From Escherichia coli (GTDB lineage: Bacteria; Pseudomonadota; Gammaproteobacteria; Enterobacterales; Enterobacteriaceae), in NCBI RefSeq assembly GCF_048403405.1, contig NZ_CP183129.1: DNA of 64,000 nt, one strand, 5' to 3'. Of the stretch, positions 32,120-35,100 are shown piece after piece (within the stretch, counting starts at the first letter, position 1; each line of letters begins with the position of its first letter). A program made the position numbers.

Positions 32120-35100
32120 GGAATGTTCATCTTGTGCTGTTGCACGGATGGGGACTGAATGCCGAAGTGTGGCGTTGCATTGACGAGGAACTTAGCTCGC
32201 ATTTTACGCTGCACCTTGTTGATCTGCCCGGTTTCGGGCGCAGCCGGGGATTTGGTGCGATGTCACTTGCTGATATGGCCGAAGCCGTGCTGCGACAGGC
32301 ACCTGATAAAGCCATTTGGTTAGGCTGGAGTCTGGGCGGGCTGGTGGCAAGCCAGATTGCGTTAACCCATCCCGAGCGTGTTCAGGCACTGGTCACCGTG
32401 GCGTCGTCACCTTGTTTTAGTGCTCGTGACGAGTGGCCGGGGATAAAACCGGACGTGCTGGCGGGATTTCAGCAGCAACTCAGTGATGATTTTCAGCGTA
32501 CAGTGGAACGGTTCCTGGCGTTACAAACCATGGGTACTGAAACGGCCCGCCAGGATGCGCGGGCGCTGAAGAAAACCGTTCTGGCGTTACCGATGCCGGA
32601 GGTTGACGTGCTTAATGGCGGGCTGGAAATCCTGAAAACGGTCGATCTCCGCCAGTCGCTGCAAAACGTGTCCATGCCGTTTTTGCGATTGTATGGCTAT
32701 CTCGACGGTCTGGTGCCGCGCAAAGTGGTGCCGATGCTGGATAAACTTTGGCCTCACAGCGAATCATACATCTTCGCCAAAGCGGCCCATGCGCCGTTTA
32801 TTTCGCATCCGGCCGAGTTTTGTCGCATGCTGGTGGCGTTGAAGCAGAGGGTGTAGGTGGCTTTTGAAATGGCGAGACAGAACTTTACTGACTCGCCGCA
32901 GCCAACTCTTCTTCTGACACCCCGGTAAAACGCAGGGTGTCTGCAAGATGGACTCCGGATTACAGCATTCTTTTGGCAATATCCAGGGCTTCCAGGCGTC
33001 GATCCAATAAATAACCAATCAGGTAACTAATAAGATATTCTCTTTCTGCATCTGTCATTAAAACCATCCTTTACGTTATTGATGATTTATTTCAGCAAGG
33101 TCTTCAACCGTCAGGCTGGTAAATCGCAGAACGTCCTCAAGAGAGACTCCGGCATCCAGCATGGTTTTGGCAATATTTAGGGCGTTGGTACGTATACCTT
33201 TCTGAAACCCCTCCTGCCGCAATCTTTCCGCAATAGTCATTAAACTCTCCTTGTGTTTCGGTGAACGTTCGGCCACACCGTCGATAAAATCGTTAAAACG
33301 TACCGCATCGCCAGTTTGCAGTATGTAATTAAACAGCCCTTTGATTTGTCTGTCATTAGCGTATCCACTACTTAATAAGCAGGCCATTTGCTCTACCAGC
33401 CCCATCAGGTCGCGTTGACGAATATGTTTTTGAATTAACTCCAGCAGTGCCATACGTCGGTGCTGCATGATTTCATCATCAGGCATGACGGTGACATCAA
33501 TCAGCGGAAATGCAGAGGCATAAAGCTGCCTTGCCAGGTTGGGATCGGCGAAACAATCAAGCCAACACAGCGAATAGGGATAGGGGCTTTCAATACCGTG
33601 GTAAAACAACAATGGCACCACCATCGGCAAGGTTTTGTATCCGGCATCCAGGTGATTTTGCATTGCGGCAATGGCGTAGCGCATCATGCGAAATGCGATC
33701 AGTTTGTTTGAGGTGCTTTGATGTTCAATCAGACAATAGATGTATCCTGGCCCTTGTTCCGTTTTCACCGACCACAGCACGTCGGAATAGCTTTCACGCA
33801 GATCGTCATCAATAAAGCTGCTCGACTCCAGCTTGAGGGTTTTCATATCACAGAGCGCGTGAATAGGTGCCGGTAAATGGAACGCAAGAAAATCGCGCGC
33901 CGTCTCCGGTTGGCGTAAAAAGAGTTTGAACAGCGCATCGTGTGGGGTGGAACTCTGCTTTTTGCTCATGGCGTTCCTTCACCTGTTATTTGAATGCCGC
34001 GACTCTACGCGCCACTCCACACCTGTGCATTAGCCAGTTTTCATCCCTGCGAGACGCTTTCAGAGGAACTTACGTCGCGCTGCAAGAATTGCATTTTTAT
34101 GGAAAGCCGCACGCAAAAAAGCCCGGATGCAAACGCATACCGGGCTTTTCAAAACAGGCGATGGAGTATGGTTAACGCAGCGCCCACCACTCGCGCAGAC
34201 AGACTTTGCCTTCCGGGCAGCTTTTACAACTGCCAGAGAGGCAGCCGTCAGGTTCTTCCTGAATCCGCACGGCTTTGCCCATGCTTTCCAGCTGTTGCAG
34301 CATGGCGTTAATCATTGGCTGCGGCGTGTTCAATGTCTGGCTTATCTGGGCCGCTTCCATACGGCCCCGTAACGCCAGCAAATCACGTACCTGAATAAGT
34401 GAAGCCATTAATGGCAATCACCGGTGGTGCTGGCTGCGCAGCAACTGCTTACCGATTTGCGCGTTGCCAGCAGTTCGATATTCACCCGGCTACGCGCGCG
34501 GCGCAGCAGACCGATAACCACGATGTTAAACAGGATAACCGCCAGAATGCACACCAGGCTGTAAGTTGGATGCTGGCTGTAGCTGGCGACTTGATAGAAC
34601 AATGTTGCCAGCGAGTAAGCGATATTCAGCCCCCACAAGATGGAGAAGCCCATCCAGCCACGGCTTGATTCACGGGCGATAGCACCCATCACCGAGATGC
34701 ACGGTACGTACAGCAGGACGAAAATCAGGTAGCTGTATGCGGCAGCTGCGCTACCGAATTTCTGATCCATCACACCCATCGCCCCGGTACCCATTTCGCC
34801 GTCGCCTTTGCTCGCTTCAATCGGGTTCATCAGTACGCTAAGGCTGAAGGTGTCTTTCAGGCTCTGCCAGGTTTCATCTACCGCACTGAACAGCTCTTCA
34901 CCGAGGTTAAATTCCGCCGGATTGAACTCTTCGTCCTGAATATTTTCTGCGGTGTAGAGGGTGTTGAGCGTACCCACCACCACTTCTTTCGCCATTGCGC
35001 CTGTAAACAGGCCAACCGTTGCCTGCCAGTTATCTTCATGCACGCCAATCGGCTTGAAGACTGGGGTGATCACCCGGCTGACGGAAGCCAGCGCCGAGTC

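What the first reader, a model, noticed from the sequence alone, without database searches (positions are those of the whole stretch)
32885..33058. Stand-alone copy of an Rpn C-terminal tail, split by an in-frame TAA, directly downstream of rpnA
Eighteen nucleotides past the rpnA stop, the same strand encodes [32 protein letters not shown], then TAA, then in the same frame SGVHLADTLRFTGVSEEELAAASQ. Together these are co-linear with the last ~57 residues of RpnA, beginning at the equivalent of the internal Met (MTIAERL...). As I recall from published work on the Rpn family, their C-terminal tails can be expressed separately as small proteins from internal starts and antagonise the full-length nuclease. 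A separate duplicated tail ORF would therefore be either a decayed tandem rpn paralogue or a truncated 32-aa free-standing tail peptide with possible regulatory activity.
Basis: partly seen in the sequence, partly recalled or inferred. Interest (0 to 1): 0.5.

Follow-up and report, generated by a model that had tools for sequence, protein, structure and literature searches.

The report
Dead duplicate of RpnA antitoxin tail
Just after the rpnA defence-nuclease gene, this E. coli strain carries a second, free-standing copy of the gene's small antitoxin tail that a stop codon has cut short; it is an ordinary pseudogene relic, but it shows how these tails are duplicated, fused and lost.

Summary
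On the minus strand, 17 nt after the rpnA stop, a Shine-Dalgarno site and ATG open a 57-codon frame (33058..32885) with TAA at codon 33. It is a full duplicate of the rpnA internal 'gene-within-a-gene' (RpnA_S antitoxin). Its last 35 codons plus the spacer before bioH are the same DNA as the true 3' end of K-12 rpnA (92% nt identity). Repaired, it matches the RpnA-S crystal structure 7TH0 (E 2e-10) and models as the same three-helix bundle (pLDDT 94).

This two-tail allele is in 853 of 5,426 complete E. coli genomes, and at least 826 carry the same TAA. Intact 57-aa copies (CAA at codon 33) sit at the same spot in E. ruysiae-like cryptic-clade loci, and E. albertii keeps CAA. The stop therefore arose by C-to-T within E. 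coli.

TAA aligns exactly with E25 of RpnA_S. Zhong et al. 2023 showed that a stop at E25 abolishes antitoxin activity. Other strains add a second stop or frameshifts. pN/pS is 0.2-1.0, against 0.00 for the active tail.

Best reading: a nonsense-inactivated, ypaA-like stand-alone rpnS copy. It is a new member of a known kind and of modest interest.

The parts
33076..33969 (-). rpnA (297 codons plus stop), the full-length Rpn nuclease/toxin RpnA_L
   Evidence: ORF. NCBIfam NF007361 RpnA scores 675 bits against a cut-off of 583. RefSeq annotation of the identical locus L002.
33076..33240 (-). Active tail T1. This is the internal gene-within-a-gene rpnA_S, from Met244 (ATG 33240-33238) to the rpnA stop. 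Sequence: [54 protein letters not shown].
   Evidence: The start region is identical to the K-12 rpnA_S internal start mapped by Zhong et al.. There are no non-synonymous differences among 12 haplotypes.
32992..33208 (-). A 217-nt block present in this allele and absent from the K-12 allele. It holds the body and stop of T1, the 17-nt spacer, and the start plus first 22 codons of the downstream tail T2.
   Evidence: Alignment to K-12. Present at 80% coverage or more in 853 of 5,426 complete E. coli genomes, always as one chromosomal copy.
33059..33075 (-). Spacer between the rpnA stop and the T2 start. It contains a Shine-Dalgarno AAGGA (33071-33067) 8 nt upstream of the ATG.
   Evidence: Read from the sequence. 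It is homologous to the rpnA_S internal-start RBS AAGGAGAGTTTAATG. The local fold gives no significant structure, z 0.71.
32963..33058 (-). T2 codons 1-32, the open part of the remnant ([32 protein letters not shown]). This corresponds to helix alpha-1 only.
   Evidence: The AF2 model of the repaired T2 places helix 1 at residues 3-33.
32960..32962 (-). Premature stop TAA at T2 codon 33. The codon is CAA in cryptic-clade Escherichia and E. albertii, and GAA (E25 of RpnA_S) in K-12 rpnA.
   Evidence: Alignments. An exact 28-mer containing TAA is found in 826 genomes. The CAA and TAT versions are found in none.
32885..32959 (-). T2 codons 34-57 plus the original stop (SGVHLADTLRFTGVSEEELAAASQ*). 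This covers helices alpha-2 and alpha-3 and is orthologous to the last 24 codons of K-12 rpnA.
   Evidence: 92% nt identity to K-12 rpnA. Alignment to 7TH0. The window haplotype carries the changes P37H, I41T and M42L here.
32871..32897 (-). Hairpin GGCGAG-N15-CUCGCC spanning the T2 (K-12 rpnA) stop codon, in the 28-nt gap before the convergent bioH. It may be a shared 3'-end structure.
   Evidence: The 81-nt fold has a minimum free energy of -30.1 kcal/mol, z -3.09. The simple terminator scan did not call it.
32086..32856 (+). bioH, the convergent neighbour that fixes the right-hand boundary of the locus

Best explanation
The segment is the nonsense-inactivated relic of a small free-standing gene, called T2 here (an rpnA_S' copy of 57 codons). 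It duplicates the internal antitoxin cassette of rpnA, including its ribosome-binding site, start codon and three-helix HTH_Rpn_C domain.

The intact gene persists directly downstream of rpnA in sister Escherichia lineages. In E. coli sensu stricto a C-to-T change turned codon 33 from CAA to TAA, and that allele is now nearly fixed among the 16% of genomes that keep the two-tail architecture.

Inferred steps:
- The region is probably still transcribed as the 3' part of the rpnA and rpnA_S mRNAs, because no terminator lies before it.
- A 32-aa helix-1 peptide may be made from the good Shine-Dalgarno site.
- That peptide lacks helices 2 and 3 and is most likely inert.

The rest of the segment is the same DNA that serves as the real 3' end of rpnA in K-12-type strains. 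The two allele classes differ by one 206-nt indel bounded by a GGGG microhomology. The K-12 tail, which is the one that was crystallised, is therefore a T1-start/T2-body fusion.
For: Shown here:
1. T2 duplicates the whole rpnA_S cassette, from the Shine-Dalgarno site to the stop.
2. Repaired T2 matches RpnA-S 7TH0 at E 2e-10.
3. Repaired T2 models with pLDDT 94.4 as helices 3-33, 38-45 and 49-56. 7TH0 is the top Foldseek hit, probability 1.00.
4. Intact 57-aa orthologues P0005, P0007 and P0009 carry precomputed PF27070 HTH_Rpn_C. They lie 17 nt after rpnA in the same feoC-rpnA-bioH synteny.
5. The flanks of those loci are only 91-95% identical to the window, so they come from cryptic clades or E. 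ruysiae.
6. Codon 33 is CAA in those loci and in E. albertii.
7. Codon 33 is TAA in at least 826 of the 853 complete E. coli genomes with this allele.
8. No complete E. coli genome carries the CAA, TAT, L018-type or L021-type sense versions.
9. TAA aligns with RpnA_S E25.
10. Strain 06-00048 (L024) has a second stop at codon 35.
11. Frameshifted variants exist: P0013, P0017, P0036 and P0039.
12. Constraint is relaxed. pN/pS is 0.2-1.05 in T2, against 0.00 in T1, 0.03-0.04 in the rpnA nuclease domain and 0.09-0.11 in bioH.
13. NCBI PGAP annotates this stretch as a pseudogene with an internal stop in some genomes.
14. Deleting 206 nt in silico from allele L018 reproduces the K-12 3' end with 3 mismatches in 208 nt.

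From the literature: Zhong et al. report that an engineered stop at E25 abolishes the block of RpnA-induced SOS (PMC10327210).
Against: - The TAA allele has been kept without deletion across haplotypes whose flanking genes differ by about 8-9% at synonymous sites.
- The first 32 codons were open in all eight TAA-bearing E. coli haplotypes examined, and they have a good Shine-Dalgarno site.
- pN/pS among TAA haplotypes is below 1 (0.53 before the stop, 0.20 after). The counts are tiny (about 6 non-synonymous and 5 synonymous segregating sites), and some variation may predate the stop.
- A rare TAA-to-TAT sense variant exists in one metagenome contig (L020).
- Even the intact orthologues show no clear purifying selection (16 non-synonymous against 6 synonymous summed pairwise differences). 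Function of the ancestral gene is therefore itself inferred from ypaA, not shown.
Confidence: 0.75

Rival explanations
1. Silent tail cassette. The downstream tail is kept as a DNA-level reserve. Deletion or crossover between T1 and T2 swaps the C-terminal domain of the toxin and its intragenic antitoxin in one step, giving new RpnA specificities. This can coexist with the pseudogene reading.
For: - The K-12-type tail equals the T1 start fused to the T2 body, one 206-nt indel away from allele L018.
- Hybrid single tails exist. P0035 joins the T1 5' part to the T2 3' part.
- The O145-type allele runs T1 through LRFT and then has a T2-like end. It falls in a band of 42 genomes.
- L021 is a T2/K-12 mosaic.
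- Zhong et al. suggest that Rpn proteins may themselves promote such recombination.
Against: - The direction of the K-12/L018 event is unresolved.
- L018 and L021 are single metagenome contigs and are absent from the 5,426 complete genomes.
- The O145 tail end differs at 5 of 42 nt from T2, so it may be an independent allele.
- The TAA spoils any crossover upstream of codon 33.
- Nothing shows selection for keeping the cassette.
Confidence: 0.13
2. The truncated 32-aa helix-1 peptide is a functional small protein. It might modulate RpnA_L/RpnA_S oligomerisation through the dimerisation helix.
For: - There is a good Shine-Dalgarno site 8 nt from the ATG and no sequestering structure.
- The TAA is nearly fixed, and codons 1-32 were open in every TAA-bearing E. 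coli haplotype examined.
- Helix 1 is the dimer interface and the specificity determinant in RpnS proteins.
- A four-residue repeat variant of the truncated form exists (P0034).
Against: - The equivalent E25-stop RpnA_S is inactive.
- T2 helix 1 (EYLISYLIGYLLDRRL) is unlike the resident T1 helix 1 ([14 protein letters not shown]). RpnS action is strictly cognate, down to a single repeat.
- There are many non-synonymous variants of the 32-mer (P0015-P0037).
- pN/pS before the stop is 0.5-1.05.
Confidence: 0.08
3. Decayed full-length tandem rpn paralogue whose N-terminal nuclease domain has been eroded.
For: Tandem rpn arrays are known in other species.
Against: - Only 17 nt separate the rpnA stop from the T2 start, and homology begins at the Shine-Dalgarno site.
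- The same compact layout is found in every clade sampled.
- No nuclease-domain remnant is present.
Confidence: 0.03

Closest known systems
ypaA (rpnE_S') downstream of rpnE, and the second rpnC_S copy downstream of rpnC in some E. coli (Zhong et al. 2023, PNAS; PMC10327210 / PMC10400941)
   Same: It is a free-standing duplicate of the Rpn C-terminal antitoxin cassette, on the same strand and immediately downstream of its parent rpn gene. It derives from that parent's own tail. The paper also notes that rpnS copies can be lost by deletion or fusion.
   Different: This copy is at rpnA, which the main text of the paper does not list as having a downstream copy (the supplement was not available to me). 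It is broken by a stop codon in E. coli. Its helix 1 is an unusual hydrophobic YLIx repeat rather than the charged or glycine-rich repeats described. Expression is untested, whereas YpaA was detected by tagging.
K-12 RpnA_S (PDB 7TH0), the intragenic antitoxin of RpnA
   Same: Residues 22-57 of T2 align with 14-49 of RpnA_S (E 2e-10). They share the three-helix fold and the same genomic DNA (92% nt identity), including the spacer before bioH.
   Different: K-12 RpnA_S is translated from inside rpnA and is intact. T2 is outside the gene, has a different and 8-residue longer helix 1, and stops at the E25 equivalent.
Orphan C-terminal toxin/immunity modules downstream of rhs and cdiA genes (comparison from my own knowledge, not tested here)
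   Same: Displaced or duplicated C-terminal cassettes lie just downstream of the main gene. They are often truncated and can recombine back into it.
   Different: Here the cassette is the antitoxin/oligomerisation tail of a type II-like toxin-antitoxin nuclease, not a delivered toxin tip with a separate immunity gene. No mechanism of cassette exchange has been demonstrated.
NCBI PGAP pseudogene call 'transposase; internal stop; incomplete; missing N-terminus'
   Same: It covers the last 36 codons of this same segment in some RefSeq genomes, for example L027 positions 1317-1424.
   Different: The annotation is inconsistent (there is none in the window-identical record L002). It misnames the element and misses the 5' half with its own start.

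Membership tests
RpnS / HTH_Rpn_C (PF27070) antitoxin domain | Sequence match to the Rpn C-terminal domain | tested here: met
   7TH0 RpnA-S at E 2e-10. NCBIfam RpnA profile positions 257-292 at E 1e-9. BLASTP against the window RpnA at E 6e-10. Intact orthologues carry precomputed PF27070.
RpnS / HTH_Rpn_C (PF27070) antitoxin domain | Compact three-helix bundle with a long first helix | tested here: met
AF2 gives pLDDT 94.4 with helices 3-33, 38-45 and 49-56. The top Foldseek PDB hit is 7TH0, probability 1.00, TM 0.71.
RpnS / HTH_Rpn_C (PF27070) antitoxin domain | Length variation in helix 1 by four-residue repeats between strains | tested here: met
   P0034 has an extra SYLI. T2 helix 1 is 4 residues longer than T1 helix 1 (repeat spacing 194 against 182). 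T1 has a TNAL indel in E2348/69-type alleles. The repeat chemistry (YLIx) is atypical.
RpnS / HTH_Rpn_C (PF27070) antitoxin domain | Intact open reading frame covering all three helices | tested here: not met
   TAA at codon 33 in the window and in at least 826 E. coli genomes. The frame is intact only in other Escherichia clades and in three metagenome contigs.
RpnS / HTH_Rpn_C (PF27070) antitoxin domain | Blocks the cognate RpnL nuclease (antitoxin activity) | not testable with these tools
   There is only indirect evidence. The homologous E25-stop RpnA_S is inactive in the published assay.
Free-standing downstream rpnS copies (ypaA type) | A separate small ORF with its own RBS and start, same strand, directly downstream of the parent rpn gene and derived from the parent's tail | tested here: met
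   17-nt spacer, Shine-Dalgarno AAGGA, ATG. The T1/T2 direct repeats include the RBS. The T2 3' part equals the K-12 rpnA 3' end.
Free-standing downstream rpnS copies (ypaA type) | The protein product is detectably synthesised | not testable with these tools
   No expression data are available for strains carrying this allele.
Pseudogene (decaying relic) | A disabling lesion relative to intact orthologues, with further independent lesions in other strains | tested here: met
   CAA changed to TAA. Second stop in L024. Frameshifted variants P0013, P0017, P0036 and P0039.
Pseudogene (decaying relic) | Neutral evolution (dN/dS about 1) | tested here: inconclusive
   pN/pS in T2 is 0.2-1.05, far above T1 (0.00) and the flanking genes (0.03-0.11). 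It rests on about 11 segregating sites in 8 TAA haplotypes.

The most novel reading that the evidence does not exclude
The tandem tail is a stored alternative cassette of a defence toxin-antitoxin gene. Microhomology deletion or crossover between the active tail and the downstream copy replaces the toxin's C-terminal domain and its intragenic antitoxin together. The well-studied K-12 RpnA tail would be the product of such a switch. The TAA-bearing copy would still serve as donor for the helix 2-3 part, or its helix-1 peptide would retain a modulatory role.
Probability: 0.15. Interest if true: 0.6.

Novelty: new member of a known kind. Interest (0 to 1): 0.3.

Why it matters
It adds rpnA to the Rpn genes known to spawn a free-standing antitoxin-tail copy, and shows the fate of such a copy: intact in sister Escherichia clades and killed by one shared nonsense mutation in E. 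coli. It also shows that the K-12 RpnA tail used for the published structure and genetics is one 206-nt indel away from this two-tail allele. That gives a concrete, testable route for how Rpn toxin and antitoxin tails diversify together. In practice, it explains an inconsistently annotated 'transposase' pseudogene fragment in about 16% of complete E. coli genomes. It has no direct phenotypic consequence that I can show.

Tried and rejected
- DNA-pattern scans of genome contigs and metagenome contigs, with both degenerate and exact T2 patterns, returned nothing. This exhausted those scans, so species distribution rests on the protein database and its contigs.
- The Pfam-A scan of the repaired T2 gave no hit, even at E up to 10.
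- PADLOC gave no hit for T2 or for RpnA.
- Rfam at the E-value threshold gave only sub-threshold chance matches.
- The sigma-70 promoter and terminator scan found nothing between rpnA and bioH.
- tblastn against plasmids hit only three chromosome-sized records filed as plasmids, so there is no mobile source for T2.
- The 217-nt block occurs once per genome and never on plasmids.
- A search with the T1 tail found only 7 small proteins and no outgroup information.
- Supplementary files of the PNAS paper are not held. I could not check whether an rpnA downstream copy is shown there.
- I considered and rejected three ideas. A chance ORF is ruled out by E-values around 1e-10. Programmed readthrough is unlikely because the stop context is TAA followed by T. 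A coding function on the opposite strand is unlikely because it has only 20-25-aa ORFs.
- I did not attempt a linker-fused AlphaFold 'dimer' of T2 with T1, because it would be unreliable.
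Full report
**What is there**

The window is an E. coli chromosome segment with the order nfuA, gntX, bioH (plus strand, 32086-32856), rpnA (minus strand, 33076-33969), feoC, feoB. It is 100% identical across this locus to strain TUM14771.

On the minus strand the rpnA stop (33078-33076) is followed by a 17-nt spacer, CGTAAAGGATGGTTTTA. 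The spacer contains AAGGA 8 nt before an ATG at 33058.

From that ATG the frame reads [32 protein letters not shown]. It then has TAA (32962-32960), then SGVHLADTLRFTGVSEEELAAASQ, then TAA (32887-32885).

I call the active tail inside rpnA 'T1' (Met244 to the stop, 33240-33076). I call the downstream frame 'T2'.

**Is the similarity real?**

Yes.
- Repaired T2 against the window's RpnA gives 19/33 identities, E 6e-10.
- Against PDB sequences the only significant hit is 7TH0, E. coli RpnA-S, at E 2e-10. T2 residues 22-57 align to RpnA-S residues 14-49.
- The NCBIfam RpnA equivalog profile matches at its last 36 positions, E 1e-9.
- At DNA level T1 and T2 form two direct repeats. One is 91 nt at 73% identity over the tail body. 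The other is 22 nt at 82% identity over the ribosome-binding site, the ATG and the first codons.
- The two spacings (194 and 182 nt) differ by 12 nt. That is one four-residue unit in helix 1, the kind of variation Zhong et al. describe for RpnS proteins.
Its best PDB match is 7TH0, probability 1.00.
- The Pfam scan available to me returned nothing. The protein database's precomputed Pfam hits label the intact orthologues PF27070 HTH_Rpn_C.

**Relation to the K-12 gene**

Aligning the window to MG1655 shows the two are collinear and 97-98% identical through rpnA up to ...[11 protein letters not shown]. The window then has a 217-nt block (33208-32992) where K-12 has about 10 nt. The two become collinear again, at 92% identity, from ...ALDIAK to the stop and on through the 28-nt spacer to bioH.

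The last 35 codons of the 'remnant' are therefore the same locus as the real 3' end of K-12 rpnA. The K-12 tail looks like the start of T1 fused to the body of T2.

One metagenome contig with E. coli-like flanks (L018) carries a two-tail allele whose T2 reads ...YLLG-EQSKALHIAKIMLES.... Deleting 206 nt from it between two GGGG runs reproduces the K-12 3' end with 3 mismatches in 208 nt. The same operation on the window allele leaves 19 mismatches.

The direction of this single event is not settled.
- The L018 junction shares only a short G-run (4-5 nt) between the two sequences, which is too short to be a k-mer assembly chimera.
- The L018 allele is absent from all 5,426 complete genomes.
- The T2-type helix (YLIGYLISYLLDRRM...) is also present in E. 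albertii, and the two-tail layout is present in cryptic clades. I therefore think the two-tail form is older. This is an inference.

**Population and phylogenetic distribution**

- The 217-nt block is present at 80% coverage or more in 853 of 5,426 complete E. coli genomes. It is always a single chromosomal copy. These include the B2 strains IHE3034 and E2348/69.
- A 30-nt megablast query can only seed on the 28-mer GCCAAAAGAATGCTG-TAA-TCCGGAGTCC. It hit 826 genomes.
- The same query with CAA or TAT hit none.
- Queries specific for the L018-type and L021-type sense alleles also hit none.
- At least one of the 27 unaccounted genomes (strain 06-00048, L024) still has TAA but fails the 28-mer because of a second stop two codons later. 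So 826 is a lower bound.
- Intact 57-aa proteins (P0005-P0009, codon 33 = Gln) are encoded at exactly the same position, 17 nt after rpnA and before bioH, in loci L003-L011.
- The flanking genes of those loci are only 91-95% identical to the window, against 96-99% for true E. coli. They are therefore E. ruysiae or cryptic-clade Escherichia, even where labelled E. coli.
- E. albertii also has CAA. The ancestral codon is thus CAA, and a C-to-T transition created TAA inside E. coli.
- Sense codons with E. coli-like flanks occur only in three metagenome contigs. L020 has TAT, one step from TAA. L018 and L021 have GAA with a K-12-like 3' part.

**Is the truncated copy likely to work?**

TAA sits at the last residue of the predicted helix 1. 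In the alignment to 7TH0 it corresponds to E25 of RpnA_S (...AKIML-E25-SG...).

Zhong et al. used exactly an E25 stop as their negative control. It abolished the ability of RpnA_S to block RpnA-induced SOS.

They also showed that RpnS action is strictly cognate, down to one four-residue repeat in helix 1. T2 helix 1 (EYLISYLIGYLLDRRL) is unrelated to that of the resident RpnA ([14 protein letters not shown]).

Further decay is visible.
- There is a second stop in L024.
- Frameshifted versions exist in other assemblies: P0013, P0017, P0036 and P0039.
- The window haplotype has three amino-acid changes after the stop, including the otherwise conserved Pro37.

Nei-Gojobori estimates on 8 TAA-bearing and 4 sense-codon haplotypes:

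| Region | pN/pS |
|---|---|
| T2 | 0.2-1.05 |
| T1 | 0.00 (0 non-synonymous against 50 synonymous summed differences) |
| rpnA nuclease domain | 0.03-0.04 |
| bioH | 0.09-0.11 |

The T2 numbers rest on about 11 segregating sites. They show strongly relaxed constraint relative to T1 but cannot prove strict neutrality. Even among the intact cryptic-clade copies, non-synonymous changes dominate (16 against 6). I therefore cannot show that the ancestral gene was under selection either.

NCBI's pipeline already calls part of this stretch a pseudogene ('transposase; internal stop; missing N-terminus') in some genomes and leaves it unannotated in others.

**Expression signals**

- No promoter-like or terminator-like site lies between the rpnA stop and T2.
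- The RNA around the T2 start has no significant structure (z 0.71).
- A stable hairpin (32897-32871) spans the T2 stop just before the convergent bioH. The 81-nt fold has a minimum free energy of -30.1 kcal/mol, z -3.1.
- I infer that T2 is transcribed as the 3' part of the rpnA and rpnA_S messages. A 32-aa peptide could be translated. Neither point is shown.
- No Rfam family reaches threshold.

**Comparison with what is known**

Zhong et al. (PNAS 2023) established three things:
- Rpn tails are intragenic antitoxins.
- Separate downstream copies exist for rpnE (ypaA, whose protein was detected) and for rpnC in some strains.
- Such copies can be lost by deletion or fusion.

Their main text does not mention a downstream copy at rpnA. 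I could not see the supplement.

The present element meets the positional, sequence, fold and repeat-variation criteria of that class. It fails the intact-ORF criterion in E. coli.

It is therefore a new, pseudogenised member of a known kind, not a new kind of system. By function it resembles orphan C-terminal modules downstream of rhs and cdiA genes. That comparison is from my own knowledge and is only an analogy.

**Verdict**

The most likely explanation (confidence about 0.75) is a nonsense-inactivated, ypaA-like stand-alone duplicate of the rpnA_S antitoxin cassette, retained as 3'-untranslated sequence.

Two readings are less likely but not excluded:
- The copy acts as a recombination reserve for tail switching. 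Hybrid alleles P0035, the O145-type and the K-12-type itself are suggestive.
- The helix-1 peptide keeps some activity.

Interest is modest at 0.3. The main value is a clean natural example of the birth, fusion and death of Rpn antitoxin tails, and the link to the K-12 tail.

Noticed in passing
L015 (E. coli O145 RM12275-C1), locus positions 701-1504: In this strain rpnA ends with a single hybrid tail (T1 through LRFT, then GLSEEELAAASQ). An AbrB/MazE-family antitoxin gene and a frameshifted PemK/MazF toxin gene sit between rpnA and where bioH should be. About 42 complete genomes fall in this identity band.
   Followed up: partly
L017 (E. coli ST131 strain 2017_APHA), locus positions 729-1103: rpnA is annotated as a pseudogene missing its N-terminus, leaving essentially the C-terminal part with a K-12-type tail next to feoC. 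The nuclease may be lost while the antitoxin part is kept.
   Followed up: no
L019 (E. albertii CP034212), locus positions 2380-2800; proteins P0011, P0012, P0014: rpnA is gutted by two microhomology deletions (one at a shared ATGAAAAC). This leaves a 78-aa ORF that fuses RpnA residues 42-69 to the T2 repeat helix. Sister alleles expand a 9-residue unit (YLISYLLDR) up to three times.
   Followed up: partly
L012-L014 and L021 (E2348/69-type alleles), T1 region: The active tail T1 carries a 12-nt (four-residue, TNAL) deletion at about the position where Zhong et al. place repeat insertions (H261 of RpnA_L). Otherwise T1 shows no amino-acid variation among the 12 full-length (297-aa RpnA) two-tail haplotypes compared.
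   Followed up: partly
L008 (Logan SRR11484490) and L010 (GCA_000407765.1): In cryptic-clade loci with an intact T2, rpnA itself can be damaged or disturbed. L008 has a 1-nt insertion that splits rpnA into 200-aa and 109-aa ORFs. L010 has IS-like genes (HTH_28, rve_3) inserted between feoC and rpnA.
   Followed up: no
Proteins P0122 (361 aa) and P0060 (321 aa): P0122 is an E. coli Rpn paralogue with two complete tails fused in frame (...[19 protein letters not shown]...). P0060 is a K-12-type RpnA whose stop is lost and which reads 29 residues into the bioH spacer. These are further examples of tail duplication and fusion in the family.
   Followed up: no
window 32871-32897 (minus strand): A conserved hairpin, GGCGAG-N15-CUCGCC, overlaps the T2 (K-12 rpnA) stop codon in the 28-nt gap between the convergent rpnA and bioH genes (z -3.1). 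It may be a shared 3'-end or terminator element, which could constrain the last T2 codons regardless of coding.
   Followed up: partly
window 34041-34150 (minus strand): There is a weak, sub-threshold Rfam match (Bp2_287; 23.8 bits against a gathering score of 70; E 0.008) in the feoC-rpnA intergenic region. It is probably chance.
   Followed up: no
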